Origin: an uncultured Acidobacteriaceae bacterium
GTDB taxonomy: Bacteria > Acidobacteriota > Terriglobia > Terriglobales > Acidobacteriaceae
DNA: 64,000 nt
Assembly: GCA_963840895.1 (NCBI GenBank)
Contig: CAWJAR010000014.1
Span: forward strand, 2,306 to 66,305
Direction of reading: 5' to 3'
The translations under genes were made by a program, and so were the position numbers. Every line of letters starts with the position of its first letter. Position 1 is the first letter of the stretch. The notes beneath the pieces are model-generated. The model ran no database searches and had not been told where the DNA came from. It saw nothing but the letters and a program-made list of their open reading frames with translations. Below are positions 4,476-28,860 of this stretch, piece after piece.

Positions 4476-4693
4476 AGATAACCCCAGAAGGGAACACTCC
4501 GCTGACCGAGTTTGAAATCGTGGACAGCAAGATTCTGGCCGAGCGGCTGAGGGTTTCGGTCGCATGGGTCAAAAAGCAATGTCTGTCTGCAGCCGAGAAT
4601 CGAATCCCCCACTTGAAATTCGGCAAGTGTACTCGCTTCCTGTGGGGCAGTCCGGATCTATGCAAATGGCTAGAAGGTCGCTACCAGAAATAA
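4472..4693 (+). CDS. excisionase/AlpA-like helix-turn-helix DNA-binding protein
   Basis: 73 aa. The pattern LAERLRVSVAWVKKQ...IPHLKFGKCTRF...WLE matches the excisionase-family HTH. The ATG overlaps the primase stop, and the gene sits directly upstream of the integrase. Confidence 0.55.
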   Translation: MKITPEGNTPLTEFEIVDSKILAERLRVSVAWVKKQCLSAAENRIPHLKFGKCTRFLWGSPDLCKWLEGRYQK

Positions 4694-4916
4694 CTCGCCT
4701 TTGACTCCACTTACGGGGTAAGCTACCATCGCTCTAAGGGGGTAAGCTGATAATGAAGTTATCGAAACGGGCAAGCGCTGAATTTGCAAAAGCAGGGGCA
4801 GAGGGCGGACGGATCGCCGCCAGTCGAATGACTCCGAAACAGCGAACAGAACGGGCACGGAAAGCGGCACTAGCCAGCGCGAGGGCAAGACAAGCGAAAG
4901 CGCGAAAGGGGAAAGC

Positions 4917-6176: not shown

Positions 6177-6206
6177 CAGTGTAAAATCATGGAGTTAACA
6201 GCAAGC

Positions 6207-6283
6207 GGCCCCGTAGCTCAGATGGATAGAGCAGCGGTTTCCTAAACCGAAGGTCGGCAGTTCGACTCTGCCCGGGGCCACCA
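6207..6283 (+). tRNA. tRNA-Arg (anticodon CCT), CCA encoded
   Basis: Hand-folded cloverleaf: acceptor GGCCCCG/CGGGGCC, D arm GCTC-AGATGGATA-GAGC, anticodon arm GCGGT-TTCCTAA-ACCGA, variable loop AGGTC, T arm GGCAG-TTCGACT-CTGCC, discriminator A plus CCA. Total 77 nt. Confidence 0.9.
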
Positions 6284-10367: not shown

Positions 10368-10369
10368 AC

Positions 10370-11158
10370 GTGGAAATCCTGGTATGCGCCCGAAGAGTGC
10401 CCGACACCTCGGAGAACGAGATCGAACTCAATGCTGCCGGAAACGACATTGAGCGCGATGAACTCGTTTACTCGGTGAATGAGGCAGACAACTACGCCGT
10501 CGAGGAAGCGTTGCAGATTCGCGACCGCGTAGGCGGCAAAGTCACGGTGGTCACCGTCGACAACGAGGAGGGCGAGGAGATCCTGCGCCGGCAGTTGGCC
10601 ATGGGTGCAAATCAAGCCGTTCTGCTCTCCGACGACAGCTTCGAGGGTTCTGACGGAAAAGGTATCGCCACCATCCTCAAGGCCTTTGTAGACAAGGGAC
10701 ACTACGACCTGATCCTGACCGGTGTGCAGGCCGATGACGGCGCGGCCCAAGTCGGAGGAATGCTGGCCGCGATGCTCGACTATCCCTTCGCATCCTTGGT
10801 GAACTTCATCACGGTTCAAGGCGGCAAGCTGAAAGTGAGTCGCGAGATCGAAGGCGGCAACCGCGAGATCAATGAGATCGATCTACCGTGCGTGCTCTCG
10901 ATCCAGACCGGGATCAATGAACCGCGCTATGTCGGAATGCGCGGCATCCGCCAGGTTGCGTCCGTGACGATTCCGACCTTGGGAACGTCAGACCTCGGTG
11001 TTTCTCACGGTACCGTCGGAAAAGAGGCCGCAAAGGCAAAGCGTGTCGATTACTTTGTCTCTGCGCTCAGCAAGGGTGCCGAAATCCTGAAAGGAAGCCG
11101 GGAAGAGAATGCGCAAAAGATTCTTGAGTTGGTAGCTGCGAAGGGAGGCTTAAACTAA
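10370..11158 (+). CDS. etfB: electron transfer flavoprotein beta subunit
   Basis: The N-terminus (V)EILVCARRVPD matches the EtfB signature MKILVCIKQVPD. AGGAGG lies 6 nt upstream of GTG 10370; the track start, TTG 10364, is also possible. Confidence 0.9.
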   Translation: MEILVCARRVPDTSENEIELNAAGNDIERDELVYSVNEADNYAVEEALQIRDRVGGKVTVVTVDNEEGEEILRRQLAMGANQAVLLSDDSFEGSDGKGIATILKAFVDKGHYDLILTGVQADDGAAQVGGMLAAMLDYPFASLVNFITVQGGKLKVSREIEGGNREINEIDLPCVLSIQTGINEPRYVGMRGIRQVASVTIPTLGTSDLGVSHGTVGKEAAKAKRVDYFVSALSKGAEILKGSREENAQKILELVAAKGGLN

Positions 11159-12144
11159 TGGCTCGCATTTTTGCTTACATCCTGCACAAAGGCGGTGTAG
11201 TCGATGACTCGGCTGCCGAACTCATTGCCGCGGCGAAAGCGATTGATCCCGCTTCTTCTCCTACTGCGATTCTCGCTGGCTGGGGTCCGGACTTTGATCT
11301 TTCTTGCAATTCCTTGACTGCCTCCTTCAGCGATGTCTGGAAAGTCGCAAATCAAGCGCTCGCGTACCCGAACGCCGAACTTGTTCGTCAGACGCTAGTA
11401 CGCGTACTACCGCCGGACAGCATCGTGCTCGTCCTTCATGACCATTTCGGAATCGATCTGGCGCCGGGATTGTCGATCAAGCTGAGTGCGGCATTTGTGT
11501 CCGATGTGCTGGCGATCGAAGGCGGCGATGGAAGCTCTTTGAAACTCATCCGCCAGGAGTTCGGCGGACAGTTGAGTGCACACGTCATGTGTGACATTTC
11601 CTCAGGCGCCGTGATCAATATTCGTCCCGGAGCCTTCAAGCCCCAGCCACGCCTCGTGACTTCCGGCAAGGTCATCGACAAGTCCGCCGAAGTAGGCTCG
11701 CTGACAGCACGGCGCCGCTATCTCGAAACAGTTGTCGCCGAAGCCGGCGATGTCGATATCACCAAGCACAGTCTGCTGGTGTCAATCGGCCGCGGCATCC
11801 AGGAAAAGGACAACATTGCACTCGCCGAAGAACTCGCCGAGGTACTCGGCGCAGCTGTCAGTTGTTCGCGGCCAGTGGTCGACGCCAAGTGGATGGAAAA
11901 ATCCCGGCAGGTCGGCTCTTCAGGAAAAACCGTGAAGCCCAAGGTTTACCTTGCCTGCGGCATCAGCGGCGCATTCCAGCATCTGGCCGGCATCAAGGGG
12001 AGTCCGTTTCTGATTGCCATCAACAAGAATCCCAAGGCCCCCATCTTCCAGGTGGCCGACGTTGGAATCGTGGACGACCTCCTCGAGTTCCTCCCCGAAC
12101 TGACCAATAAAGCCAGAGAATTCCGCGGCGTTGCTGCCAAGTGA
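11158..12144 (+). CDS. etfA: electron transfer flavoprotein alpha subunit
   Basis: C-terminal FAD-binding region: [10 protein letters not shown]...[27 protein letters not shown]...[12 protein letters not shown]. The ATG overlaps the etfB stop by 1 nt. Confidence 0.9.
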
Positions 12145-12154
12145 GGATGAGCCG

Positions 12155-13828
12155 ATGCTTGCATATAAAACACTGAAACTAAGCGTGAAGTCACTCAAAG
12201 AATTTGCGAAGAAGCGCTTGCCCGACGAAGTGCTGATCGAACTCGATGAGCGCGACGAGTGTCCGGTCGATATCGTGCGCGACATGTGCAGCCCCGACAA
12301 GTTGGGAATTCAGCTCCTGTTCATCCCTGAAGAATTCGGTGGCATGGGGGGCGGCACATTCGATGTCTACTGCATTTGCGAGGAGATGGCACGCATCGAT
12401 CTCGGTGTCGCTACCTCCGTATTGGCTACGTTCCTGGGGAGCGATCCGATTACCGTTGGTGCGACACACGAGCAGAAGAAGACATGGCTCAGCCGGATTG
12501 CCGACGAAGGCTTGCTCTTCGCCTACGGCGCCACCGAACCGGAAGCTGGCAGCGACCTGGGCGCGCTTCGCACCACGGCCGACCGCGTCATGCAAGACGG
12601 GCGCATCGTCGGTTACAAGATCAACGGCAACAAACAGTGGATTAGCAATGGTGGAATCGCAGGTGCCTACACGGTTTTGGCCAGCACGCCAGCCGGGCCG
12701 AGTTGGTTTGTCGTGGAAAAAGATGCCAAGGGATTTACTCACGACGAGCCCGAAGACAAGCACGGCATTCGCCTGAGCAACACAGCGGCACTCGCGTTCA
12801 ACGAGGTCTACGTTGATGCTGACCGCCTTATCGGTGGCGTTGAAGGTCAGGGCTTGAATCAGGCGCAGGCGGTATTCGGATATACGCGTCTGATGGTCGC
12901 GGCTTTTGGATTGGGCGCCGGTTGGGCCGCCCTCGATCGCGCCATCCCTTATTCCACGAAGCGCATTCAGGCCGGAGCACCGCTTTCGGAGAAGCAAGGC
13001 TACACGCACAAGCTGATCGTACCTAACGTCGCCCGTCTTGAAGCCGCACGCGCCTATATCGAACAGACAGCGGAACGCATCGATGTCGGCGAAGGCAGTC
13101 TCAACACGGAAGGCGCGATCGCGAAGTACATGGCAACCGAAGCAGGGAACCAGGCTGCCGAGGCCAGTATTCAGGCTCTTGGCGGATACGGCTACACGCA
13201 CGAATATCTGGTTGAGAAGATTAGTCGCGACGTGCGCATCACCACGATCTACGAGGGCACCTCTGAAATCATGGAGATGACCATAAGCCGAGATCGCTGG
13301 CAGCTTCACCTGAAGACTCGCGGCCAGCACTATCACGACAAAGCCGTCGAGCTGGAGGCCTTGTATGCGCAGCATCCGAACGTGGGCGCGAACATGGCTG
13401 CACTAGCCCATCACGCTCTGGCCGAATTGATGGAGAAAGCGCGGGTCGCACGCCTGACACGATATCAGCATATTCTCCTGCGCCTGGGAGAATGGATTGC
13501 CTACGCCGAGTGCGCTGGCACCTTGGCGCGCCGCGCCGCGCTTCATGCCGAGAACACGCTGAATGAAAAAGCGAATCGTCGCTTTGATGCAACGGCGCTC
13601 GCTGCCGTGAGCCGCATTTTCGCTCGCGATGCCGCACTCAAGGTCGCGGAAGAAGGTTTGCGCTGGATCTGCGGGTCCGGTGCAATCGCGGACTCTGAGA
13701 TGCCCGCTTTCGAAACAAGTTTGCAATTGCCCGCCATTCATCGTGGCCAGGCGGGTTTGATTTTTGACATGGATTTCGTAGCCGACGTCCTCTACGCCCG
13801 CGCAGCCAAGCCTGCGCTCGCCGCATAA
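12155..13828 (+). CDS. acyl-CoA dehydrogenase with ~170-aa C-terminal extension
   Basis: ACAD motifs [20 protein letters not shown] and the catalytic-base region [14 protein letters not shown] lies 7 nt upstream of ATG 12155. A helical extension follows the canonical end of the fold. Confidence 0.9.
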
Positions 13829-13886: not shown

Positions 13887-16800
13887 ATGCAAATGGAAGA
13901 CACAGCCTATCGTGCGATTGCGATCGTAGGCGCGGGAGCCGTGCTGCCCGACGCCCCCAACGTCAACGCTTTCTGGGAGAACGTGAAGCGTGGCCGATAC
14001 AGCATCACCGACGTTTCTCCGGAGCGTTGGGATCCCGCATTTTATTACGATGCAGATCCCAGGGCCCCGGACAAGACGTACTCCAAGATTGGTGGATGGG
14101 TGCGCCAGTTCACGTGGGATCCGATGAAGTGGCACATGCCACTTCCACCCCGTGTCACCGATGCGATGGACCAAGCGCAGAAGTGGGCTATCGCCGCCAC
14201 TCGTGAGGCCCTCGAAGACTACGGCTACCCCAAGCGGCCGCTGGATCCCGATCGCGTCGCGGTCATCCTCGGCAATGCCATGGCGGGTGAGAAACATTAT
14301 CAGACGGCCTTGCGGGTGAACTTCCCTGAGTACGCGCATGAACTCGCTGAAAGCGAGAGTTTCGCGACGCTGCCCGAAGCCCTCCGTCGCGACATAACGC
14401 GGGAGCTGCGCGAACGCATTGGCAAACGCCTACCCGAAGTTACTGAAGACAGCATGCCCGGCGAGCTTGCCAACTGCATCGCCGGACGCATCGCCAATCT
14501 CTACAACTTCCACGGCCCGAACTTTATTTGTGACGCGGCTTGCGCCTCTGCCATGGCGGCCATGACCGCTGCCGCCGAAGGGCTGGTTGCGAACGATTTC
14601 GATGCTGTCATCACCGGCGGCATTGACCGCAACATGGGCGCTCAGACTTTCGTGAAGTTCTGCAAGATCGGCGCGCTCTCGGCGACCGGCACACGTCCCT
14701 ATGCCGAGGGTGCGGATGGCTTCGTGATGGGCGAGGGTTCTGCGATCTTCGTAATGAAGAGGTTGGCCGATGCTGAGCGCGATGGCGACAATATCTACGC
14801 CGTGTTGCGCGGAATCGGTGCATCGAGTGATGGGAAAGGCAAGGGGATTACCGCACCCAACCCGATCGGGCAGAAGTTCTGTCTGGAGCGTGCGTGGCAA
14901 AATGCGGGGCTATCGCCCGCTACCGCTACGCTCATCGAAGGGCACGGTACTTCTACTCGCGTTGGCGACGTGGTTGAAGCGCAGTGCATCGCGGACCTGC
15001 TCAAGAGTCAAAACCTTCCGGTTCACTCGGTCGCATTGGGCTCAGTCAAATCGAACATCGGACATTTGAAAGGCGCAGCGGGTGCAGCCGGAATGCTGAA
15101 GATCGCTCTGGCCCTCCGCGACAAAGTGATGCCACCCAGCGTGCACTGCGAACATCCCAGCCCAGATATCGACTTTGCCCACTCCCCTGTTTACGTCAAC
15201 ACCACACTGCAGCCGTGGACAGTTCCGGCCGACATTCCGCGACGTGCCGGCGTGAGCGCCTTCGGCTTCGGAGGCACGAACTTTCATATCGTGCTTGAAG
15301 AGCACATTCCCCACAGGCTGACCGGAAACGGGAAGCGGTCAATCGCTGTCAACCTCCCGCACACTGCGATCCCAGAGGTAGTTATGAATGTAAAAGCAAC
15401 CCCCTTCTCCCCTTCAGCCTCAACCGCATCGCCTGTCTGCAAAACTCCTCTGCGAGGTGCGTTGTTGATTGGCGCTGCCTCCGATTCCGAGCTTGTCGAA
15501 CGCTTGTCCGCGGTTATGAAGGACGCACAAGCTGGACGCATCCCGGCGTCCGCCGCTCCAGCCGAAGCCGACCTGCATGCGCCGCAGCGTCTTGCAATTG
15601 ATTATTCCGACGCCGCTGAACTGGCAGACAAGTCCGCCAAGGCTTTAAAGGCCTTCGCCGCAAATCAGTCCGTTGTGTGGAAGGCATTACGCGCGCAGGG
15701 AATCTTCCGCGGCCAAGGTGACGCGCCGAAAGTCGCATTCCTCTATACCGGACAGGGCTCGCAGTACGTGAACATGTTGCGTCCGCTCTACAACGCAGAG
15801 CCGATCGTCGCGGAGACATTTGCCGAAGCGAATCGCGTGATGACTCCTCTGCTGGGTAAGCCTCTGACTGATTTTGTATTTGTCGACCAGACCGATCCCG
15901 CTGCTGTGTCGAAAGCCGATGACGACCTTCGGCAGACAGCGATCACGCAGCCCGCCGTGCTGGCTATCGATCTCGCGCTAACCCGGTTGTTGGCCGCATA
16001 TGGCATTCAGCCAGACATGACGATGGGGCACAGCCTCGGCGAATACGGTGCACTGGTTGCGTCGGGCGCACTGCCGTTCGAGGATGCTCTTGAAGCGGTT
16101 AGCGCCCGCGGTCGTGGCATGACCCGGGTTGCGGTCGCTGACACCGGCAAGATGGCTGCCGTATTCGCGCCTCTCACGGAGGTGGAACGAATCCTGAAGA
16201 GCATCACCGGCTATGTAGTCATCGCCAATATCAACAGCGAGCACCAGGCCGTGATTGGAGGTGCGAGTGATGCGGTTGCCGAAGCCATGCAGGTTCTGCA
16301 GAAAGCGGGCTATGAAGCCTCGGAACTGCCCGTAAGCCATGCTTTCCATACCTCCATCGTCGCTCCAGCCAGCGAACCACTCCGTCAGGAACTTGCCCGA
16401 CTGCGTGTGGAATCGCCGCACCTTCCCGTGGTGGCCAATGTGAATGGAGAGTTCTATCCTACAGGGCCCGATGTCGTACCCCAGATACTGGACCTTCTCG
16501 CCAAGCAGGTAGCCTCTCCCGTGCAATTTGTGAAGGGCCTGCGCACTCTCTACGAGGCGGGCGCTCGTATTTTCGTAGAAGTTGGCCCGAAGAAAGCGCT
16601 ACAGGGGTTCGCCGAAGATGTTCTCGGCGGCCGCGGCGATGTCCTCGCACTCTTCACCAACCATCCCAAGTTCGGCGATATCGCCTCGTTCAATCAGGCG
16701 CTGTGTGGCCTCTACGCGGCAGGACTCGGCCGCGGCATCGCTGCCATCTCGCCAGAGAGGCCAGCGGAGGTCGCATCGTTGTCGCCCAGTGCAAGACCAT

Positions 16801-19800
16801 CTCCCGCCTCGGAAGAGCCATCTGTCGGATGGCGCAGCGCTTCTGGCGCTGCGATAAAGCCCAACCCCTCCCCCATGGCTTCAGCCGCTGCGCGCCGAAA
16901 CGATCCCGATCACTACGCCGAACTTGGCCATTTCTTCGCCGAGGTTCTTGAGCGCGCCTGGCAGATTCAGGGCGACCCTGCTCCGGCAAATCTCCCGGTT
17001 GTCATCACCGGTGCCGCTCTTGGCCTTCCCGGGACCGATCATGTCTTCGACGATGCCAACCTCGCCCGCCTCCTGCGTGGCGATCAATTCATCGACCTCA
17101 TCCCCACTCGCCTGCGCAAGGCAATGCTCGACAAGCACATCACCCGCCTGGTAAAGAGCGACAACGGCGGACCAACTTTCGAGACCATCAGCAACATCTC
17201 CGACGTCATTAAATTAGCCGGCCGCGGAGGCGCGTTCGATCTCCAGCAGGAATTCGGCATTTCTGCCGACCGTCGTGCCGCTCTTGATCGCGCTACACAA
17301 CTCGCCATCGCGGTTGGAATCGACGCCCTGCGCGACGCCGGCATCCCGCTGGTCATGCGCTACAAAACTACGACAAAAGGCACTCAGTTGCAGGATCGCT
17401 GGGGGCTTCCTGACGCGTTGCGAGACGACACTGGGGTGATCTTCGCTTCCGCATTCCCCGGGTGCGATTCCTTCGCCGATGAGATGGGGCGTTATTACAA
17501 CGACCACTCCCGCCGTGAGCAACTCGGCTTGTTGGAGAGCCTGCTGGCTCGGGCTGCGAAAGGGAATGGCGACTCAGTCCTCGAACAGGAAATCGAGCGC
17601 CGCACAGAGGACTTGCGGGATGCAATCGAGAAAGAGCCGTACGTCTTCGATCGCCGCTTCCTGCTAAGAACGCTGTCAATGGGGCACTCGCAGTTTGCTG
17701 AACTTATTGGCGCGCGCGGTCCCAACACACAAATCAATTCAGCCTGCGCCAGCACTACGCAAGCCGTTGCCCTGGCGCAAGACTGGATCAACGCCGGCCG
17801 TTGTCGCCGCGTGATTATCGTCTCGGCAGATGACGTGACTTCAGATCATTCCATCGAATGGTTCGGCGCAGGGTTTCTTGCCAGCGGTGCGGCCGCAACC
17901 GACGAAGTGGTCGAAGAGGCTGCCACTCCGTTCGATCGTCGGCGCCATGGCCTGATCGTCGGCATGGGCGCTGCCGGCCTCGTAGTCGAGAGCACCGACG
18001 CCGCCCGAGAGCGCGGCATTCAACCGATCTGCGAAGTGCTGAGTACGGTCACTGCCAACAGTGCCTTCCACGGCACCCGCCTCGACGTACAACACATCGG
18101 TCAGATGATGGAGAACCTTATTGGGCAGGCCGAGGCAAAGCACGGCATCTCACGCCAGCAAATTGCGCCTCATGCGGTATTCGTTTCTCACGAGACCTAC
18201 ACGCCCGCGCGCGGCGGCAGCGCCTCCGCCGAAATCCACGCGTTACGCCACGTATTCGGCGCCGCAGCCGATCAGATCGTCATTGCCAACACCAAGGGAC
18301 AAACCGGCCACGCCATGGGCACGGGGATCGAAGATGTTCTCGCTGTGAAGGCCTTGGAAACTGGCTTGGTACCACCCGTCGCTAACTTTAAAGAGGTAGA
18401 CCCGGAGTTGGGCACGCTGAACCTGTCAAAGGGCGGCGGATACCCAATCGAATACGCGATTCGATTGGGCGCGGGATTCGGCTCACAGATCAGCATGTCG
18501 TTGCTTCGCTGGAACGCCCCGAAAGATGGAGGTCACCGCCGTCCCAATGATCTCGGCTACGCCTACCGCATCGTCGACGAGGACTGCTGGAAATCCTGGC
18601 TGAGGCAAATTGCAGGCTATCCCAAGGCGGATCTGGAAGTGGTCCACCGCACATTGCGGGTGCGAGATCAAAAAACAGGGGCACGCTTGGTGGAAGTCGC
18701 CAAGACGCCTCCGGAAGCGGCCGCCGTTCCAGTCCCACCGACACCAGCGCCGGCGGAGTCGCCGCGCACTGAACCGTCACACCCGATGGTTGAAGCAAGA
18801 GTCGAAACGAAAACAGCAACTCTCGTGCCGACATCGCCCCCAAAGCCAGTCGTCCAAGGCGATTCGGTCAAGGATCGCGTTTTGGCTCTGGTCGCTGAAA
18901 AGACAGGCTATCCGGTCGACATGCTCGATCTGGATCTCGACCTCGAAGCCGACTTAGGCATCGACACCGTAAAGCAAGCCGAAGTAATGGCGACGATTCG
19001 TCAAGCCTACGGTATCGTGCGCGACGACACCATCAGGTTGCGCGATTTCCCCACGCTCGCTCGCGTCATCCAGTTCGTGCATGACCGTGCACCACAAGTT
19101 CGCGCCGCGCTGCCCTCAGCAGCTTCGCCTGTATCAGAACCTGCGCCCAAAGCGGAAGGGAAGGCCGAGCACAAGATCAAAGTCGCTCCGCCAGTCGCCG
19201 CAGTGGCTCTCGCACCCATCAAAGTTGCAGAAACAGAGACTGATCTCGTGAAAGACCGCATTCTTGCGCTCATGGTTGAGAAGACCGGGTACCCACAAGA
19301 CATGCTGGACCTCGATCTCGATCTCGAGGCTGATCTCGGTGTCGATACCGTGAAGCAAGCAGAAATGTTTGCGGCCATCCGCCAAATCTACAACATCCCT
19401 CGCGATGAAAACCGTAAGCTCCGCGATTACCCCACGCTGGCGCACGTGATTCGCTTCGTGTACGAGAAGCGTCCCGACTTGGCTGGTACGTCTGCTCTAA
19501 CAGCTCCAACCCACGTCTCGCCCCGGCCAACGCCCGCCGAGGCAGTTGCTCCATCTCTAACGCCGATCGCAGTCCACGCCAGTTCCGATGACCCCATTCA
19601 AAAGAAAGTCCTGCAGATCGTAGCGCAGAAGACCGGCTATCCCGAAGACATGTTGGATCTGGATCTCGACCTTGAGGCCGATCTTGGCGTCGATACGGTG
19701 AAGCAGGCAGAGATGTTTGCCGCTGTCCGCACCGCCTACAACATTCCGCGCGACGAGAATATGAAGCTGCGCGATTTCCCGACGTTGGCTCACGTCATCA

Positions 19801-22454
19801 AGTTCGCACACGAACGCTCTGCCCTTGTAACCTCCGCTTCGGCGTCTCCCGCCAAGGAGAAATCGAAGCCAACGCCAACGCTCTCTGAGCCCACCGAACG
19901 CCGAGTTCTTAATAGCTTCGAAGCTGCAGATCGTGTCCCGCGGCGCATCCCAGTAACGACCTTGCGTCCTCCGCTCACGTTTTGCAAGCCATCAGGAGTG
20001 AAACTCGATCGCGCCAGCCGCGTCGTTATCATGCCCGATAAAGGTGGCGTGGCCGAAGCACTGACGCAACGCCTGCGCGTGTTAGGCGTCGAGGTACTCT
20101 GCATCGAAGCTGCTCTCGATGCCGATACCCTTACACGCATTCTCAAAGACTGGATCACCTCCGGTGCAATCGCCGGAATCTACTGGCTCCCCGCGCTCGA
20201 CAATGAAGGCGACCTCCGCACTCTCGAGTCTGCCAGTTGGCATGAAGCCGTTCGCCTGCGGGTGAAATCGCTGTACGTTGCAATGCGCACACTGTATGAG
20301 CAGATCGGCCGGCCAGGCACGTTTCTCGTCACGGGAACGCGGCTTGGCGGACACCACGGGTACGACGATGCAGGCGCAACATTCCCGCTCGGAGGCGCCG
20401 TCACCGGTTTCGCTAAAACCTACAAGCGCGAGCGGCCGGATACACTCGTCAAAGCAGTAGACTTCGAGCCCAGTCGCAAAGCCTCAGAAATCGCTGACCT
20501 CCTGGTTGACGAGACGCTGCGCGATCCCAGTGCCGTCGAGATCGGATACACCAGCGACCAGCGCTGGACCGTCGGTCTAGAAGAGCAATCCGCCAGCGAC
20601 GGAAACCCAGGCATGGTTCTCGACAAGAGCAGCGTTTTCGTTGTGACGGGGGCGGCGGGCAGCATCGTCTCAGCGATCACCGCCGACCTGGCCGCTGCAT
20701 CTGGCGGCACTTTCTACCTGCTCGACTTGGTACCCAAGCCAGATCCGGACAATCCCGATCTCAAACGTTTTGTCACCGATAAGGAAAACCTGAAGCGCGA
20801 TCTGTTCGCCCGCATACAGACCCGAGGCGAACGCGCCACGCCGGCGCTCGTCGAGAAAGAACTTGCTGCCCTCGAAAGGGCGCAGGCAGCGCAAGCGGCA
20901 ATTGATGCCGTTCGCGCCGCTGGCGGCACTCCACATTATTTCAGCCTCAACCTTGCCGACGCTGAAGCCGTCACGAGAGTGATCGATCAGGTTCGTCTGG
21001 GCAGCGGGCGCATCGACGTCCTGCTGCATGCCGCAGGTATTGAAAGAAGCCACTTCCTTCCCGACAAAGATTCCCGGGAATTCGATCTGGTTTTCGACGT
21101 GAAGGCTGACGGCTTCTTTAACTTGCTGCACGCTATCGGCGACATGCCTCTCGGCGCTACGGTGGCGTTCAGTTCCATTGCAGGCCGCTTCGGCAACGCG
21201 GGTCAGACCGACTACAGCGCCGCGAACGATCTGCTCTGCAAGATCACTTCGAGCTTCCGCACCACTCGTCCCGCCACGCGCGGCATCGTGATCGACTGGA
21301 CGGCGTGGGGCGGGATCGGCATGGCGACCCGCGGCTCTATACCGAAGATGATGGAACTCGCCGGTATCGACATGCTTCCACCAGATGCTGGTATTCCCCT
21401 GATTCGACGCGAACTGACCACGGGCGCCACGCGCGGCGAGATCGTCATTGCCCAGCGCCTCGGGGTGTTGCTGAATGAATGGGACACAACCGGGGAACTC
21501 GATGCTGCAGCCGCGGGGGCTGCCAAGAAGTCCTTGCCAGCAAGCGGGCCGATGGTCGGCAAGATTGTATCCGCCAGCATCTCCGGCCGCTTTACGGTCG
21601 AAACAACTCTTGATCCCCAAGTTCAACCGTTCCTGCACGATCACCAGATTGAGGGCACCCCGGTGCTGCCGGGGGTCATGGGCATCGAGGCCTTCGCGGA
21701 AGCAGCTACCTGTTTGCTGCCGGGGTGGAGCGTTGCGTCCATCGAGGACGTGAACTTTCTGGCGCCATTCAAGTTCTACCGCACCGAACCACGCGAGATC
21801 CAAGTGGAAACCAGGATCCGTCCGCAAGGTGATGAATTGGTGGCGGATTGCCGCCTGATCGGCCGACGCATTCTTCCGAACCAGAGCGAACCTCAAAGCA
21901 CCATCCACTTCACCGGGCGGGTGCGGCTCTCGAAACAGCCGACACAAACGCCGGCTCGAATGCTAGGCAAGGTGGAAGGCCATATTATCCAATCTGCCGA
22001 CATCTACCGAATCTACTTCCACGGCCCGGCTTACCGGGTTGTGGAGAAAGCGTGGTGGGACGGCAAGCGAGTCATCGGATTGATGGCGGCCCATCTGCCT
22101 CCCAATCACCACCCAAGTGAACTGGCTACGTGCGTGGAGCCGCGGCTAATCGAGCTCTGCTTCCAGACTGCTGGCATCTGGGAGCTGGGTGTGCAAGGTC
22201 GCATGGGCCTGCCGCAGCACCTGCGCGAAGTCTCTCTTTTCCGGATGCAGGAGGACGCGGACGGACCGTTGTATGCCGTGCTCACTCCCGACGCTGCTCG
22301 GGGAAGCTTCGACGTCGAAGTCCTGGATGCAAAAGGGAACTGCTACTTGCGCGTCACGGGATATCAGACCGTAGCCCTTCCGAGTGGCGCCGACGCGAAA
22401 TCTCTGAGAACGCTGCATGAGGTCATGTTTGGCGAAGCCGCCCTTGTCGCATGA
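13887..22454 (+). CDS. PfaA-like iterative type I polyketide/fatty-acid megasynthase, KS-AT-KS-ACP-ACP-ACP-KR-DH
   Basis: Domain motifs are listed in the sub-features below. AGGAG lies 7 nt before ATG 13887; the track start, TTG 13869, is in frame. No ER, TE, R or CLF domain was recognised. Confidence 0.9.
   Translation: [2855 protein letters not shown]
13908..15302 (+). other. KS1 domain (PfaA-type ketosynthase)
   Basis: [10 protein letters not shown] (Cys225), [31 protein letters not shown]. A charged insert (aa ~141-194) precedes the catalytic Cys. Confidence 0.85.
15726..16613 (+). other. malonyl-CoA:ACP acyltransferase domain
   Basis: [20 protein letters not shown] (Ser722), SHAFHT. 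Confidence 0.85.
16992..18512 (+). other. KS2 domain (second ketosynthase, intact Cys-His-His)
   Basis: [12 protein letters not shown] (Cys1293, codon 17745-17747), SHETYTP (His1441), [13 protein letters not shown] (His1481). Confidence 0.75.
18858..19088 (+). other. carrier (ACP-like) domain 1, Thr at the Ser position
   Basis: [21 protein letters not shown]; the Thr1700 codon is ACC at 18966-18968. Confidence 0.8.
19236..19472 (+). other. carrier (ACP-like) domain 2, Thr at the Ser position
   Basis: [21 protein letters not shown]; the Thr1827 codon is ACC at 19347-19349. Confidence 0.8.
19587..19814 (+). other. carrier (ACP-like) domain 3, Thr at the Ser position
   Basis: [21 protein letters not shown]; the Thr1943 codon is ACG at 19695-19697. 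Confidence 0.8.
19956..21488 (+). other. ketoreductase domain (structural + catalytic subdomains)
   Basis: Rossmann motif [12 protein letters not shown]; catalytic region [19 protein letters not shown]. Confidence 0.8.
21546..22403 (+). other. PKS-type dehydratase (double hot-dog) domain
   Basis: HxxxGxxxxP motif in [14 protein letters not shown]. The C-terminal position matches PfaA. Confidence 0.75.
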
Positions 22455-22499: not shown

Positions 22500-23849
22500 A
22501 TGCAAAGTGATTTTCGACGAGTCGCGATAGTGAATCGCGGTGAACCGGCGATGCGTTTTATCCGCGCAACCCGCGAGTTCAGTTACGAGCAGAGCATTCC
22601 GTTGCGCACCATCGCGCTGTTCACCGAGCCCGATCGTGATGGGATGTTTGTTCGCGAGGCCGACGAGGCTTTCTCGCTAGGAGCTGCCCAGTTCATGGAT
22701 CGCGATGCCCTGCGAACTAAAAGCAGCTACCTCGACTACAAGCGCCTCGAACAGGTGCTGGGCGCGGCGCGTGCCGACGCCGCATGGGTTGGATGGGGCT
22801 TCGTGGCGGAACACGCGGCCTTTGCCGATCTTTGCCGCGAAATGGGCATCGTGTTCATCGGTCCTTCAGGCGACGTCATGCGGCAACTCGGCGACAAGAT
22901 CGCCGCCAAGCATCTGGCAGAACAGTCCCAAATCGCCGTGACTCCATGGAGCGGCGGTCCGGTCGAAACCATTGCTGATGCACTCACGCAAGCCGATCGT
23001 TTGGGGTTCCCTTTGCTGATCAAAGCTACGGCTGGCGGAGGCGGCCACGGGATTCGTCTGGTGCACTCGGCGAGTCAACTCCCGCAGGCGTTCGAACGGG
23101 CGCGCGCCGAAGCATTCAAGGCCTTTGGCGATCCTACCGTTTTTCTCGAACACATGGTCGAAGGCGCACGTCACATTGAAGTTCAGATTATCGCCGACAA
23201 TTTCGGAACCACGTGGGCAGCTGGCGTACGCGATTGCACGATTCAGCGTCGCCATCAGAAAGTGCTTGAGGAAGCGCCTTCTCCGGCCCTTTCTGTCGAG
23301 CAAGATGAGGATCTTCGCGCAGCCGCAATTCGCCTCAGCAAGGCTGCCGGGTACTCCAATGCCGGCACCGTCGAATTCCTGTACGAGCCCCATCCCAGGC
23401 AGTTCTTCTTCATGGAGGTGAATACTCGTTTGCAGGTAGAGCATCCGGTCACCGAATGCACCACCGGCCTCGATCTTGTGAAACTCCAGATTCACGTTGC
23501 ACGGGGAGGCCGCCTCACGGGCGACTGTCCCCGCAGCATAGGTCATGCCGTTGAAGTGCGGCTGAACGCGGAAGATCCCGACAACGGTTTTGCAGCAGCC
23601 CCGGGGGTCCTCGAACGCTTCCGCATGGGGACTGGTCCAGGTGTGAGGATCGATACGGGAGTCGCCGAGGGCGACAGCATTTCTGCCGATTTCGATTCGA
23701 TGGTCGCGAAGGTGATCGCGTACGGGCAGACTCGGAAAGAGGCGCTATCCCGCCTCCACAGAGCATTGCGTGAGAGTGTCGTCGTCCTGAAAGGCGGAGC
23801 GAGCAATAAGCCGTTTCTGATGGACCTGCTCGAACGTAACGAAGTGCAG
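22500..23849 (+). other. biotin carboxylase (ATP-grasp) domain
   Basis: VAIVNRGEPAMRFIRA, KATAGGGGHGIR, IEVQI, FMEVNTRLQVEHPVTE. Confidence 0.85.
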
Positions 23850-26800
23850 GATGGGACCGTTGACGTTGGTTGGCTCGACCGCGTCGCGACGGAAGACGCA
23901 AATCTCTGCCGCAAGTATGCCGATGCAGCCTTGGTGCAGGCGGCGATCAATGCTTACGACTCTGAGTTGGCGGTGGAACAAGCTCAGTTCTATGCGTCCG
24001 CTGCACGCGGGCGTCCGCTGGTGCGGGGCGACATCGGCCGTACGCTCGCGCTCCGTTATCACGGTCGTCTGTACTCCATGAAGACCGACCGCCTCGGTCC
24101 GAAAGACTACCGCATCGAGGTTGACGGAGTGCGGATTGAAGCGCACATCGATCGTCTCGACGAGTTTGAATGCTGGCTCAGCGTCTTCGGACGCAGGTTC
24201 CATGTAGTTTCCGTCAGCCAAGGTCTGACTTCGCGCATTGAAGTTGACGGCGTTTCGCACCAGGTGGATCGTGACGACGGAGGTGTGGTGCATGCTCCGG
24301 CGCCGTCAGTCGTCGTTTCCATCGCTGTGAAAGTGGGCGACACTGTGGAAGTCGGAGACCGTCTGGCTGTGCTCGAAGCAATGAAAATGGAGACTCAAAT
24401 TGTTGCGCCCTTCTCCGGCAAGATTCGGAAAATAATGACGATGCCTAACGTGCAAGTTGACGCCGGCGCACCCCTCCTCCAAATTGAGGGGACCGGAGGC
24501 GATGCGGAGGCCGGGCCGCAGAAGCGTGTCGTCTTTGGTGAAAGCTACACTTGGCAAAATACTCGGCAAGCCACCTGCATCGACACGCTCAAAGAACTGC
24601 GCCAGGTCATGCTCGGCTTCGACCTCGATCCAACCAACAGCGCACGCCACCTCGAGGCGTGGAGTCAGAGCTGCCCTGCATGGGGCGAAGACATTGCTCA
24701 GCACGAAAACGAAATCCTCAGCATCTTTGTGGACATCTGTTCGCTCTTCCACCGCGAACCGGAAGTCAACCACCGCGCCTCTAGTGAAGAGCCCAGCGCA
24801 GAGTCGTATCTATTCTCGTATCTCCGCATGGTCGAGACCAATGCGGAAGGCCTTCCTCCCACATTTGTAACTGCATTGCGCCATGCACTGGCTCATTACG
24901 GCGCTCTCGAGTTGGATGGATCTGCGGAACTGAAGGAGAGCTTGCTTTGGATTTGTAAGTCGCACCAGCGAATGGCCGGGCAGACAACCTCGGTTCTCGA
25001 CATTCTCGAGCGACGATTGCGCCAGGCAAAGGTCCCGGGCCCGGCTCCCAGTAGCTCCTTCCGCACTCTGCTCGATCGCATGATCGCGATGACGCATGAA
25101 CTCTATCCCGCAGTCAGCGACCTTGCCCGCGAAGTGCGTTACCGTTACTTCGATGAGCCATTGTTCGAGAAGGAGCGCGATCGGGTCTTCACCGAAGCGA
25201 CCGACAATCTTAAATATCTCCAGGAGCATCCTGACGCACCCGACCGTCGCGCGCGGCTGCACGCGCTGGTCGAGTGTCCGCAGTTGCTCGCCGGCCTGTT
25301 TGGGGCTCACTTCCCATCCGCAGACAACGCATTGCGTGGCGCCATGCTCGAGGTGCTCACCTGGCGGTACTACCGCAATTGCTCACTGCGTGATCCGCAT
25401 TCTTCAGTTGTGGGCGGTCACCCCTATTTCTCAGCCCATCACGACTCCGAAGGCACTCATACGCACATCGTCGCAGCGTATGCGGAGGATGCCTGCCTTG
25501 CGACAGTGGCGCAGGCTCTGAGTCCCTTGATTGTGCGAGTGCCGGCAGACCATGACGTCGTCATTGATTTTAACCTTGCTCATCCCGCTAAACTCTCGGA
25601 TCCAGATAGTACACAGCGAGAGGTTCAGTCGATGCTGAACCAAGTTGTATTCCCGCGCGCCATCCGACGGATCGTCGTCTCAGTGGCGGGACCGAGCCAG
25701 GGACCTCGGGGAAGCGCCCTGCAGCACTTCACCTACCAGCACGATGGAAATGCCTATGCTGAGGATCCATTTTATCGTGGCCTGCATCCGATGATGGGGA
25801 AGCGCCTGCATCTCTGGCGGCTCGGCAATTTCAAAATTGATCGCGTGCCGTCAGTCGAAGACGTCTATCTTCTGCATGCCGTTGCCCGCGACAACCCGAA
25901 AGATGAACGCCTGTTCGCGGCCGCCGAAGTGCGCGATGTAACTCCTGTGCGCGACGAAGCGGGTGGCATCGTGCAGTTGCCGCATCTGGAACGTATGCTC
26001 ATGGAAGCTCTCGCCGCGATCCGTTTGTTTCAGTCGCGTCGTCGTCCCCAGGAGCGGCTGTACTGGAACCGAGTCTTCCTGTATGTCTGGCCTCCACTCG
26101 ATCTGAAGGCCGACGAATTGCGCAACATCGTGCGCAGGCTCATGCCCGCAACCGAAGGCCTTGGTCTCGAGCAGGTCGCCGTCCGCGCGCGCATCCCCAA
26201 TCCCGCGACCGGCGAACTGCGCGATCTGGTGGTGCGCATTTCGAGCCCAGTCGGCAGCGGCCTGCTCATCACTTTCCGCCCAGCCGACAAGCTACAGGCT
26301 CTCAAATCGCTCTCCGAATACGATCAGAAGGTCGTGCGCGTGCGCCAGCGCGGGCAGGTCTATCCCTACGAGATCATCAAGATGCTCACTCCCGCATGTG
26401 AGGACGCCCGCGGCGAGTTCCCGCCCGGCGATTTCGTGGAATACGATCTGGACGCCCATCGCAAGCTCGTTCCTGTCGATCGCCCCTACGGAAAGAACCG
26501 TGCCAACATCATCGTTGGAGTCGTCCGCAATTTCACTACTCGACACCCAGAAGGCATGACCCGGGTTTTGCTGCTGGGAGATCCCAGCAGAGATCTTGGA
26601 GCACTCGCCGAGACGGAATGCCGTCTCATAATCGGTGCACTGGACATGGCCGAAGAAAAAGGCGTTCCTGTGGAGTGGTTCCCAATTTCAGCCGGCGCCA
26701 AGATCTCCATGGAAAGCGGCGTCGAGAACATGGACTGGATCGCTCGTGTCCTGCGCCGGCTTATCGAATTCACGCAAGCCGGGGGGGAGGTGAATCTCCT

Positions 26801-28122: not shown

Positions 28123-28860
28123 ATGGAGCTTTACTGGCTGGAACAAACCGAATCTGACGTGCCCGCCGACGATCGTTGGCTGAGTCCGGAGGAATCGATT
28201 TGCCTTCACTCCATGCGCTTTGCCAAACGACGCAATGACTGGCGTCTTGGCCGCTGGACTGCGAAGCGAGCTCTCGTCGCCCACCTTCGGTCGCCCATCG
28301 ACATCCGTGCACTCGTGGACGTGGAAATCCACGCCGCAGAGTCTGGCGCTCCAGAAGTATTCCTCTATGGCGAGCCTGCCGACGTCGCAATTTCTCTCAG
28401 TCACCGCGCTGGCACCGCCTTATGCACGGTGGGGCCGCCAGTCAGCAACTTCGGCTGCGACCTGGAACGAATAGAACCGCGCAGCGAAGCCTTTGTAGCC
28501 GACTACTTCACAGCGGCCGAGCAAACCCTCATTGAGCGAACGAATCTGCCAGGCCGGTCACTGCTACTCGCATTGCTCTGGAGCGCCAAAGAGAGCGCTC
28601 TCAAGGCCCTGCGCGTCGGACTTCGACTTGATACCCGGAGCATCAGTGTTATCCCGGGCGCCGGTTGGTCACACGTCTGCACTGACCCAGAGGAGTGGCG
28701 CCCCTTGCAACTCCAATACGCACCCGCAGGCTGCTTCGAAGGTTGGTGGAGAACTCAACACGACCTCGTGCGAACCGTAGTCGGCGATCCCCCGTTATGT
28801 TCTCCCCTTCACGCAATCCAGAGCCACCCTCTTGCATTAACCGTGCCCTCTCCTTTCTAG
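28123..28860 (+). CDS. Sfp-type 4'-phosphopantetheinyl transferase
   Basis: FGCDLERIE (G-x-D) and LLWSAKESALKAL (W-x-x-KE-x-x-x-K). I prefer ATG 28123 with an upstream GAGGGG; the track start at 28015 would overlap the carboxylase. Confidence 0.85.
   Translation: MELYWLEQTESDVPADDRWLSPEESICLHSMRFAKRRNDWRLGRWTAKRALVAHLRSPIDIRALVDVEIHAAESGAPEVFLYGEPADVAISLSHRAGTALCTVGPPVSNFGCDLERIEPRSEAFVADYFTAAEQTLIERTNLPGRSLLLALLWSAKESALKALRVGLRLDTRSISVIPGAGWSHVCTDPEEWRPLQLQYAPAGCFEGWWRTQHDLVRTVVGDPPLCSPLHAIQSHPLALTVPSPF

What the first reader, a model, noticed from the sequence alone, without database searches (positions are those of the whole stretch)
13887..22454. Non-canonical megasynthase architecture KS-AT-KS-ACP3-KR-DH in one 2855-aa polypeptide
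SEEN: From motifs, the domain order is as follows.
- KS1: DAACAS, HGTST, SNIGH.
- AT: GQGSQ, GHSLGE, HAFH.
- Ala/Pro/Ser linker.
- KS2: SACAST, SHETYT, GQTGHA.
- Three tandem carrier domains separated by Ala/Pro-rich linkers.
- KR: TGAAGSIV, YSAAN.
- Hot-dog DH: HQIEGTPVLP.

ESTABLISHED: PfaA, HglE, the myxobacterial Pfa2 and enediyne PksE all have KS-AT-ACPn-KR-DH with a single KS. The second condensing pair (KS-CLF) normally sits on a separate protein, PfaC.

INFERENCE: Inserting a complete second KS between the AT and the carriers suggests a self-contained two-KS iterative system. One KS might prime or elongate short chains and the other long chains. With no ER, a purely cis-acting cycle would give polyenoyl or 3-hydroxy products.
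Basis: partly seen in the sequence, partly recalled or inferred. Interest (0 to 1): 0.7.

Follow-up and report, generated by a model that had tools for sequence, protein, structure and literature searches.

The report
Two-ketosynthase lipid synthase with threonine carriers
The giant enzyme is real and has two working-looking chain-building domains, but this layout was already listed in 2011 as an uncharacterised "Type R" lipid synthase; what looks new is that its carrier domains have threonine where serine normally holds the cofactor, and that a dedicated flavin dehydrogenase always sits beside it.

Summary
Window 13887-22454 (+) encodes one 2855-aa protein ordered KS1-AT-KS2-ACPx3-KR-DH, and every quoted motif is present.

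KS2 is a complete thiolase-fold ketosynthase whose closest solved relative is FabF. Its Cys/His/Lys/His residues are invariant in 41 homologues.

The architecture is not new. Shulse & Allen 2011 described it as the "Type R" secondary-lipid synthase (KS-MAT-CLF-ACP3-6-KR plus a PPTase, with an ACC gene between them in Koribacter). The window has that gene order. The product is still unknown.

Their "CLF" label does not fit. Relatives with three KS domains carry a separate, degenerate CLF-like domain, while the KS2 equivalent stays intact.

- The gene sits in a conserved cassette: ACAD - PKS - single-chain ACC - PPTase. In Terriglobia it is preceded by EtfD-EtfB-EtfA.
- The ACAD is immediately upstream in every lineage sampled that has this exact architecture and a separate PPTase.
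- All carrier domains have Thr, not Ser, at the phosphopantetheine site (273 of 274 motifs in 85 loci, and nearly all distant representatives).

Most likely this is a self-contained iterative lipid synthase. I infer, without direct test, that the two KSs divide the elongation steps and that the ACAD/ETF pair supplies the missing enoyl reduction.

The parts
8217..10367 (+). EtfD-like membrane/Fe-S oxidoreductase (716 aa; 4Fe-4S dicluster + CCG domain). It is the first gene of the co-oriented, tightly packed gene string.
   Evidence: Pfam CCG E=4.5e-25 plus Fer4 families. It overlaps the next gene by 4 nt. Syntenic in the Terriglobia loci that extend far enough upstream (about 70 of 80), but absent upstream of the cassette in other phyla.
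10364..11158 (+). [quoted passage not shown]
   Evidence: Pfam ETF E=1.1e-40. The best PDB match is Methylophilus ETF beta, 1o94_C, E=5e-40.
11158..12144 (+). [quoted passage not shown]
   Evidence: Pfam ETF_alpha E=2.7e-35 plus ETF.
12155..13828 (+). Dedicated acyl-CoA-dehydrogenase-family flavoprotein (557 aa) with a conserved ~170-aa helical C-terminal extension. It is a candidate trans-acting enoyl reductase or redox partner of the PKS.
   Evidence: Pfam Acyl-CoA_dh_N/M/1. The core resembles MCAD/Bcd/CarC and the YEGTSE catalytic Glu motif is present. Homologues are 557 aa long. It is 62-65% identical over its full length, and immediately upstream of the PKS, in L081 and L083-L086 (GC 44-75%). 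It is also upstream in L091 and L092.
13887..22454 (+). Type R PfaA-like iterative type I synthase, 2855 aa: KS1-AT-KS2-ACP3-KR-DH
   Evidence: NCBIfam best match is TIGR02813 PfaA at 945 bits, below its 1010 cutoff.
13911..15323 (+). KS1, a PfaA-type ketosynthase (C219, H353, K388, H393)
   Evidence: Pfam E=1.6e-65. Scanned alone it matches the KS part of TIGR02813 PfaA at 411 bits.
15738..16607 (+). Acyltransferase with malonyl-type motifs (GHSLGE S716, HAFH)
   Evidence: Pfam Acyl_transf_1 E=1.2e-43. FabD TIGR00128 E=3e-58. Motifs located.
16998..18512 (+). KS2, a divergent but complete FabF-like ketosynthase (C1287, H1435, K1470, H1475) with a two-helix insertion at 17463-17633
   Evidence: PDB sequence search: FabF 4ddo E=4e-25, with the catalytic residues aligned. 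Those residues are invariant in 41 homologues. AF2 pLDDT 84.8. Foldseek to FabF E=1.4e-27, TM 0.85. Only 22% identical to KS1.
18873..19808 (+). Three tandem carrier (ACP) domains (18873-19079, 19254-19460, 19602-19808). Each has Thr (T1694, T1821, T1937) where the phosphopantetheinyl-Ser normally is (DLG[IV]D-T-VKQAE).
   Evidence: Pfam PP-binding x3. The Thr aligns to the DS serine of solved ACPs. 273 of 274 motif instances in 85 related loci carry T. Nearly all distant representatives also carry T.
20634..21311 (+). Ketoreductase catalytic subdomain (TGAAGSIV, Y2443)
   Evidence: Pfam KR E=1.2e-23. Motifs located.
21549..22394 (+). PKS-type double-hotdog dehydratase (H2586 in HxxxGxxxxP; ExxxQ at 2756)
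   Evidence: Pfam PKS_DH_N E=1.3e-12 plus PS-DH E=4.3e-14. Motifs located.
22500..28091 (+). Single-chain multidomain acyl/acetyl-CoA carboxylase (BC-BCCP-ACC_central-CT, 1863 aa), the presumed malonyl-CoA supply
   Evidence: Pfam. PDB matches include biotin carboxylases and yeast/human ACC. There is a functional precedent for a bacterial single-chain ACC, SACE_4237 (PMC6491548).
28123..28860 (+). Sfp-type 4'-phosphopantetheinyl transferase (245 aa from the in-frame ATG, which is preceded by GAGG)
   Evidence: Pfam ACPS E=5.3e-20 plus 4PPT_N. Sequence and start codon. Present in every cassette, and fused to the C-terminus of the synthase in many distant relatives.

Best explanation
The gene is a member of the 'Type R' PUFA-synthase-like secondary-lipid synthases. 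It is an iteratively acting type I enzyme encoded in a self-contained cassette.

Shown by sequence or structure analysis:
- One malonyl-type AT.
- Two ketosynthases that both keep the full decarboxylative-condensation residue set.
- Three tandem carrier domains.
- A KR and a PKS-type DH.
- Co-oriented neighbours: a single-chain carboxylase, an Sfp-type PPTase and a dedicated ACAD-family flavoprotein. In this lineage EtfD, EtfB and EtfA lie just upstream.

Inferred:
- The ACC makes malonyl-CoA.
- The PPTase primes the three carriers on their conserved Thr.
- KS1 (PfaA-like) and KS2 (FabF-like) split the elongation steps by chain length or intermediate type, as the two KSs of PUFA synthases do.
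- KR and DH give trans-2-enoyl intermediates.
- The ACAD works with ETF as the trans enoyl reductase, or as a step-specific redox tailoring enzyme. It would fill the role that PfaD plays in canonical systems.

The product would be a long-chain, at least partly reduced fatty acyl 'secondary lipid' of unknown structure. No thioesterase was seen in the cassette, so how the chain is released is unknown.
For: - Domain content and motifs.
- KS2 is complete and catalytically conserved.
- The same architecture and gene order were published as Type R, including the ACC between the pfaA and pfaE homologues in Koribacter.
- The window comes from a Terriglobia (Acidobacteriaceae/Sulfotelmatobacter-like) genome. 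All Terriglobia loci long enough to show it have EtfD-EtfB-EtfA-ACAD-PKS-ACC-PPT in the same order.
- ACAD-PKS-(ACC)-PPT recurs without the ETF genes in Kibdelosporangium and in unrelated MAGs of GC 44-75%. There the ACAD is 62-65% identical over its whole length, tracking the PKS identity.
- One distant relative that lacks the ACAD has a PfaD-type NMO enoyl-reductase domain fused to its N-terminus.
- ACAD-family enzymes can run as enoyl-CoA reductases fed by ETF. PDB relatives include Bcd and CarC, and canonical ETF feeds Bcd in Fusobacterium (abstract of PMC12630350, listed).
- Two KSs with distinct chain-length preferences are documented in PUFA synthases: PMC11962503.
- Variants with an extra ACP before KS1, or between KS1 and AT, suggest the two KSs do distinct jobs.
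Against: - No product is known for any family member, and nothing here is experimental.
- The direction of the ACAD reaction is not established. EtfD/ETF normally drain electrons from ACADs into the quinone pool during beta-oxidation, so in Terriglobia the adjacency could partly reflect a catabolic operon.
- More distant family branches have neither an ACAD nor an ER nearby (L088, L089, L090). Enoyl reduction is therefore not universal in the family, and a polyene-type product remains possible.
- The protein scores below the curated PfaA cutoff (945 against 1010 bits).
- Thr phosphopantetheinylation has no precedent that I could find.
- The ACAD structure model failed (pLDDT 45), so the role of its C-terminal extension is unresolved.
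Confidence: 0.6

Rival explanations
1. KS2 is a chain-length-factor-like, non-condensing partner, as the published 'CLF' label implies. It would pair with KS1 as a pseudo-dimer and only control chain length, or prime the enzyme by decarboxylating malonyl-ACP.
For: Shulse & Allen wrote the Type R architecture as KS-MAT-CLF-ACP-KR. KS-CLF pairs are the rule in PfaC, HglC and type II PKSs. KS2 is very divergent: Pfam covers only part of it and it is only 22% identical to KS1.
Against: CLFs lack the active-site Cys, but KS2 keeps Cys, His, Lys and His, and these are invariant in 41 homologues and in distant representatives. It also keeps the HxTxT and GFG motifs. In the three-KS relatives P0265, P0252 and P0263, a separate domain right after KS1 has lost both His (and, in P0265, the Cys as well) and is the real CLF-like unit, while the KS2 equivalent stays intact. 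The nearest structures are FabF enzymes, not CLF chains.
Confidence: 0.12
2. The synthase works without any enoyl reductase and makes a conjugated polyene or poly-hydroxy chain, like the enediyne PKS (KS-AT-ACP-KR-DH-PPTase). The upstream EtfD-EtfBA-ACAD genes would be ordinary beta-oxidation genes, or would only tailor or recycle the product.
For: There is no ER domain in the protein. Many distant relatives have the enediyne-PKS-like C-terminal PPTase fusion, and the sampled ones have no ACAD or ER gene next to them. EtfD/ETF are known beta-oxidation components in M. tuberculosis (abstract of PMC8593149, listed).
Against: The ACAD sits immediately upstream of the PKS in every sampled lineage that has this exact architecture and a separate PPTase. 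That holds down to 43% KS2 identity and where no ETF genes are nearby. The ACAD also keeps a family-specific C-terminal extension. Such co-inheritance is not expected of a housekeeping catabolic gene. One ACAD-less relative has a fused PfaD-type ER instead.
Confidence: 0.25
3. The Thr-containing carrier domains are never phosphopantetheinylated, and the protein is a decayed or non-catalytic relic.
For: Serine is the only attachment residue I know of for phosphopantetheine. From memory, unverified here, an E. coli ACP Ser36Thr mutant is not modified by AcpS.
Against: The Thr motif DLG[IV]DTVK is almost perfectly conserved in 85 loci and across representatives down to about 36% identity. The ORF is intact at 2855 aa, and all catalytic motifs of every domain are conserved. 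An intact PPTase with canonical motifs is always encoded alongside or fused. Rare relatives have Ser at the same position (P0160, P0223), as expected if either residue can carry the cofactor.
Confidence: 0.03

Closest known systems
'Type R' secondary lipid synthase gene cluster (Shulse & Allen, PLoS One 2011; Koribacter versatilis Ellin345, Solibacter usitatus Ellin6076, Elusimicrobium minutum, Roseiflexus spp.)
   Same: One pfaA-like gene with a second KS-like domain between the AT and 3-6 tandem ACPs, followed by a KR. A PPTase gene lies downstream. In Koribacter an ACC gene lies between them, as in the window. The host phylum is Acidobacteria. The product is unknown.
   Different: The paper calls the second domain a CLF, but here and throughout the family it keeps the full KS catalytic set. 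The quoted text does not mention the C-terminal DH, the upstream ACAD/ETF genes or the Thr carriers. I could not retrieve the reference sequences to place KS1 in their tree.
Canonical PUFA synthase PfaA with PfaB/C/D/E (Shewanella, Moritella; TIGR02813)
   Same: KS-MAT-tandem ACPs-KR-PKS-type DH on one polypeptide. KS1 matches the PfaA KS at 411 bits and the KR/DH region also matches PfaA. The system uses two KSs. It needs a dedicated PPTase.
   Different: The second KS is in cis and has no CLF partner. No PfaB, PfaC (FabA-type DH pair) or PfaD (NMO-type ER) was found among the window ORFs I scanned. The whole protein scores below the PfaA cutoff. The carriers use Thr rather than Ser. An ACAD and a single-chain ACC accompany it instead.
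Enediyne polyketide synthase PksE (SgcE/CalE8 type: KS-AT-ACP-KR-DH-PPTase)
   Same: An iterative type I enzyme related to PUFA synthases, with KR and DH but no ER. Many distant relatives of the window protein carry the same C-terminal PPTase fusion.
   Different: PksE has one KS and one ACP (from memory). No thioesterase or enediyne 'warhead' genes were seen among the neighbours scanned.
Bacterial single-chain multidomain ACC (SACE_4237 of Saccharopolyspora erythraea)
   Same: BC-BCCP-central-CT on one polypeptide in a bacterium, shown to supply malonyl-CoA (PMC6491548).
   Different: That enzyme serves housekeeping fatty-acid synthesis. Here the carboxylase is embedded in the synthase cassette.

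Membership tests
Type R secondary lipid synthase (Shulse & Allen 2011) | A single pfaA homologue ordered KS-MAT-(second KS-like domain)-ACP(3-6)-KR | tested here: met
   Pfam and motif mapping give KS1-AT-KS2-ACP3-KR-DH. This matches the published description.
Type R secondary lipid synthase (Shulse & Allen 2011) | A PPTase gene downstream of the pfaA homologue, separated from it by an ACC gene in the Koribacter variant | tested here: met
   ACC at 22500-28091 and PPTase at 28123-28860. Published description.
Type R secondary lipid synthase (Shulse & Allen 2011) | The proximal KS clusters with the Type R clade in their KS tree | not testable with these tools
   The reference sequences (Ellin345, Ellin6076, Pei191, Roseiflexus) could not be fetched. 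Indirect support: close relatives occur in Solibacter and Bryobacteraceae MAGs with the same architecture.
Type R secondary lipid synthase (Shulse & Allen 2011) | The second KS-like domain is a 'chain length factor', meaning it lacks the catalytic Cys | tested here: not met
   C1287, H1435, K1470 and H1475 are present and invariant in the family. I read this as a mislabel in the paper, not as grounds to exclude membership.
PUFA synthase PfaA (NCBIfam TIGR02813) | The whole protein scores above the curated cutoff (1010.1 bits) | tested here: not met
   945 bits.
PUFA synthase (pfaABCDE system) | Companion genes for PfaC (KS-CLF-FabA-type DH x2), PfaB (AT) and PfaD (NMO-type ER) | tested here: not met
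   The only ORFs above 1000 aa in the window are the PKS, the ACC and an NHL-repeat protein. No NMO or FabA domain was found in the window ORFs I scanned.
Elongating ketosynthase (KAS I/II type), applied to KS2 | Thiolase fold with the Cys-His-His triad plus the conserved Lys | tested here: met
   FabF alignment, invariance of the residues, AF2 model plus Foldseek TM 0.85 to FabF. Enzymatic activity is not testable here.
Phosphopantetheine-dependent carrier protein (PF00550) | A conserved Ser in the (D/E)LGxDS motif as the attachment site | tested here: not met
   Thr is at that position in all three domains and in 273 of 274 family motifs. The fold and the rest of the motif are conserved. Whether the Thr is modified cannot be tested here.
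Acyl-CoA dehydrogenase family (the upstream partner) | N, middle and C-terminal ACAD domains with the catalytic Glu in the YEG(T/S) motif | tested here: met
   Pfam; alignment to 5lnx and MCAD with IYEGTSEI conserved; invariant in alignment A2.

The most novel reading that the evidence does not exclude
This very widespread family of two-KS synthases attaches phosphopantetheine to threonine instead of serine. That would be a natural carrier-protein chemistry I could find no report of. It would need the PPTase that every cassette carries or fuses, which would explain why that gene is always there. The main clade would also replace the usual PfaD/NAD(P)H enoyl reductase with an ACAD-family flavoprotein fed by ETF. 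Together these would make a respiratory-chain-linked, self-contained lipid synthase whose product is a still unidentified lipid common in soil Acidobacteria and Actinobacteria.
Probability: 0.35. Interest if true: 0.8.

Novelty: new member of a known kind. Interest (0 to 1): 0.55.

Why it matters
The family is large. A search of 1.84 billion cluster representatives gave 728 clusters (at 50% identity) with E<=1e-30 to KS2, and 503 matched stretches in the one-genome-per-species collection encode a relative. It is conserved across phyla, yet no product, function or biochemistry is known.

The carrying organisms, Terriglobia, are dominant in peat and soil. An unassigned conserved lipid synthase bears on membrane adaptation and on the source of orphan environmental lipids.

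The analysis gives three directly testable points:
- Whether both KSs condense.
- Whether an ACAD/ETF pair can stand in for an enoyl reductase in a megasynthase.
- Whether Thr can carry phosphopantetheine. If it can, motif-based annotation of 'inactive' carrier domains would need revising, and an orthogonal PPTase/carrier pair would become available for engineering.

Tried and rejected
- **Literature.** 'KS-AT-KS' and related strings returned only Shulse & Allen. Searches for later work on Koribacter, Roseiflexus or Elusimicrobium PKSs found nothing new. Three searches for threonine phosphopantetheinylation returned nothing relevant. One search, on ACAD/ETF plus PUFA synthase, was swamped by clinical MADD papers. 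The Tran 2015 LCC paper is not held.
- **LCC hypothesis.** I first thought the carboxylase might be a long-chain acyl-CoA carboxylase of the MapLCC type, which would imply a Pks13-like head-to-head condensation. I dropped this. The carboxylase has an ACC_central region, its multidomain PDB matches are yeast/human ACC and pyruvate carboxylases, and no LCC chain appeared among the 60 best.
- **ACAD structure.** No fold search was run on this model.
- **Bifurcating or not.** The ETF could not be classed from the PDB ranking, which is ambiguous: Methylophilus ETF first, then CarD.
- **Promoter/terminator scan** upstream of EtfD was uninformative.
- **KS tree.** I used HMM placement instead.
- **KS1/KS2 contact.** An AF2 model of KS1-AT-KS2 together, to test an intramolecular KS1:KS2 pseudo-dimer, exceeds the 1200-aa limit.
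- **L082 (Nostocoides)** turned out to be an isolated KS2 fragment without the rest of the cassette. It was not used.
Full report
**1. The observation**

The ORF list shows one long + strand frame from 13869 (TTG) to 22454. An ATG at 13887 is preceded by AGGAG at the usual distance, which gives 2855 aa.

Pfam finds, in order:
- a strong KS (residues 9-479, E=1.6e-65, with the KAsynt_C_assoc extension);
- an acyltransferase (618-907, E=1.2e-43);
- a second, weaker pair of KS matches;
- three PP-binding domains;
- a KR (2328-2475);
- a PKS-type double-hotdog DH (2555-2643 and 2708-2836).

Scanned alone, the segment 16860-18560 gives ketoacyl-synt at 57 bits and Ketoacyl-synt_C at 27 bits.

**2. 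Is the middle domain a real ketosynthase?**

- Against solved structures, the C-terminal 290 residues align to FabF (4ddo, E=4e-25). The active-site Cys, both His and the Lys are in register.
- In an alignment of 41 homologues of 63-92% identity, those four residues (C1287, H1435, K1470, H1475 in protein numbering) are invariant. So are the neighbouring HxTxT and GFG positions.
- An AlphaFold2 model built on that alignment is confident (mean pLDDT 84.8). Foldseek superposes it on whole FabF chains (E=1.4e-27, TM 0.85 normalised to the 412-aa target).
- The extra length comes from an N-terminal helix and a two-helix insertion at about residues 1193-1249.
- KS2 is only 22% identical to KS1. It matches no specific NCBIfam family better than FabF (139 bits). 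KS1 matches the KS of PfaA at 411 bits.

KS2 is a complete KS and looks catalytically competent.

**3. Is the architecture new?**

No. Shulse & Allen (PLoS One 2011, PMC3098273) sorted pfa-like clusters into 20 types. [quoted passage not shown] They found it in Koribacter versatilis, Solibacter usitatus, Elusimicrobium minutum and Roseiflexus. [quoted passage not shown]

The window has exactly this order:
- PKS, 13887-22454;
- a 1863-aa single-chain BC-BCCP-central-CT carboxylase, 22500-28091;
- an Sfp-type PPTase, 28123-28860.

It comes from a Terriglobia genome; the closest locus, L001, is an Acidobacteriaceae MAG with 96% identity in KS2. The product of Type R was uncharacterised in 2011. 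Further searches found no later characterisation in the library I could search. The window is therefore a new member of a catalogued but functionally unknown kind.

**4. The 'CLF' label**

A CLF is defined by loss of the catalytic Cys. KS2 and its relatives keep the whole catalytic set.

A search of 1.84 billion cluster representatives returned 9401 relatives of KS2, 728 of them at E<=1e-30. I mapped the window's domains onto the 78 representatives of 2000 aa or more. Almost all show the same order, KS1-AT-KS2-ACPn-KR-DH. Variations include:
- a C-terminal fused PPTase in many;
- an extra ACP before KS1, or between KS1 and the AT, in some;
- an additional KS-like domain straight after KS1 in a few.

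In three of the five three-KS proteins examined (P0265, P0252, P0263), that additional domain has lost both His, and in P0265 also the Cys, so it is the real CLF-like unit. The KS2 equivalent keeps Cys/His/Lys/His in all five. KS2 is therefore a distinct clade of condensing-competent KS, not a CLF.

**5. The cassette**

The gene string in the window (8217-28860) is co-oriented, with overlaps or short gaps between genes: EtfD-like Fe-S/CCG oxidoreductase, EtfB, EtfA, ACAD, PKS, ACC, PPTase.

- All 80 Terriglobia loci returned by the genome scan are consistent with this order, and about 70 of them reach far enough upstream to show all seven genes.
- More telling are the distant lineages. Kibdelosporangium lantanae (L081) and four unrelated MAG or metagenome contigs of GC 44-75% (L083-L086) have ACAD-PKS-(ACC)-PPTase with different flanks and no ETF genes.
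- Two more, at 48% and 43% KS2 identity, have ACAD-PKS-PPTase and ACAD-PKS-PPTase-ACC.
- In L081 and L083-L086 the ACAD is 62-65% identical to the window's, over its whole length wherever the gene call is intact. That includes a ~170-aa C-terminal extension absent from ordinary ACADs, and it matches the divergence of the PKS itself.
- The catalytic Glu motif (IYEGTSEI) is conserved.
- The ACAD is therefore a dedicated partner of this synthase clade, not a chance beta-oxidation neighbour.

More distant branches differ:
- One has a PfaD-type NMO enoyl-reductase domain fused at the N-terminus, followed by biotin ligase, ACC and BioY genes.
- Three others have no ACAD or ER gene nearby.

**6. An unexpected hallmark: threonine carriers**

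All three carrier domains read DLG[IV]D-T-VKQAE. Alignment to solved ACPs puts this Thr exactly on the phosphopantetheinyl serine of the DS motif. The ACP1 and ACP2 cores, as read from the translation, contain no serine at all.

- In the 85 related loci held at the time, 273 of 274 motif instances have Thr.
- Among the distant representatives nearly all have Thr. One protein has five Ser and one has a Ser/Thr mix, as expected if either residue can carry the cofactor.
- The PPTase has canonical Sfp-type motifs. It is always encoded in the cassette or fused to the synthase.
- Three literature searches found no report of Thr phosphopantetheinylation. That library is incomplete, so this is absence of evidence only.
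- I infer that the Thr is the attachment site and that the dedicated PPTase is adapted to it. This is not shown.

**7. How it most likely works**

Shown by sequence or structure analysis:
- a malonyl-type AT (GHSLGE/HAFH);
- two KSs with complete catalytic sets;
- tandem carriers;
- a KR with its NADPH motif and catalytic Tyr, and a DH with HxxxGxxxxP and ExxxQ;
- no ER, TE or FabA-type DH in the protein, and no pfaB/C/D homologue among the window ORFs I scanned.

Inferred:
- The enzyme is iterative, like its PfaA and PksE relatives.
- The carboxylase supplies malonyl-CoA. A bacterial single-chain ACC doing this is documented (PMC6491548).
- The two KSs share out the elongation rounds. Published PUFA-synthase KS pairs do so by chain length (PMC11962503).
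- The ACAD, working with ETF, provides enoyl reduction or a step-specific redox edit.

ACAD-family enzymes act as enoyl-CoA reductases in Bcd/Etf and CarC/CarDE, both of which are PDB relatives here. A canonical ETF has been shown to feed Bcd in that direction (abstract of PMC12630350).

I put about 0.85 on the ACAD being functionally tied to the synthase, but only about 0.45 on it being the ER. The main rival is a polyene or poly-hydroxy product with no enoyl reduction.

**8. Verdict**

Two active KSs in a self-contained system is a sound reading. The architecture is not new, and the 'no ER' conclusion ignores a conserved partner.
- The novelty of the finding as stated is low: it is a new member of Type R.
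- The family remains biochemically blank. It shows two features that a specialist would want tested: near-universal Thr carriers, and a co-inherited ACAD in place of PfaD.
- I score interest at 0.55 for that reason.

Noticed in passing
window 18966-18968, 19347-19349, 19695-19697 (T1694, T1821, T1937 of the PKS): All three carrier domains have Thr where the phosphopantetheinyl Ser should be (DLG[IV]DTVKQAE). The same holds for 273 of 274 motifs in 85 related loci and for nearly all distant representatives. Only P0160 (SSSSS) and P0223 (STS) have Ser. I found no literature precedent.
   Followed up: yes
window 3093-6283: This looks like an integrated mobile element next to a tRNA. It has a D5_N/DUF5906 primase-helicase-like gene (3093-4475) and a tyrosine integrase (4917-6176), immediately followed by tRNA-Arg(CCT) at 6207-6283. 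It lies about 2 kb upstream of the EtfD gene that opens the gene string.
   Followed up: no
window 28923-32312 (- strand): A 1129-aa NHL / beta-propeller plus ASH/Cep192/DUF1573 Ig-like repeat protein is encoded convergently, right after the PPTase. It marks the 3' end of the co-oriented gene string.
   Followed up: no
L087 (protein P0265, 4019 aa): A distant relative has an N-terminal PfaD-type NMO enoyl-reductase domain, then KS, a degenerate CLF-like KS, AT, KS2, six Thr-ACPs, KR and DH. Downstream are biotin-protein ligase, a 1941-aa single-chain ACC and BioY. A FixABCX-like ETF set lies a few kb upstream on the other strand.
   Followed up: partly
L088 (protein P0153) and L090 (protein P0160): PPTase-fused relatives sit in low-GC contigs (36-39%). 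The neighbours look archaeal in L088 (Pcc1, Ribosomal_S13_N/S15, DHH) and include Arf/Ras/Roc small GTPases in L090. This hints that the family reaches Archaea or other unusual lineages. The organisms were not identified.
   Followed up: no
L089 (protein P0187): A KS-KS-AT-KS2-ACP3-KR-DH relative is followed by a PPTase, an SDR and a PlsC-type acyltransferase. This would fit direct transfer of the product into a glycerolipid.
   Followed up: no
L081, L083-L085 and the hit list: In several long-read or draft assemblies the synthase and the ACC are split into many short gene calls, apparently by frameshifts. All 120 hits listed by the word-indexed protein search were under 1000 aa. Domain architectures read from those records alone would be misleading.
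   Followed up: partly
L082 (Nostocoides australiense, 10001-11804): An isolated KS2-like fragment (64% identical) has no KS1, AT, ACP, KR, DH, ACAD or ACC around it, and transposase genes are nearby. It is probably a remnant.
   Followed up: no
window 12131-13828: The ACAD is extremely abundant and conserved in public soil and peat metagenomes: the 120 best hits listed are all at least 89% identical, and several are ~100% identical (557 aa). The organism or its close relatives therefore appear to be common in sampled environments.
   Followed up: no
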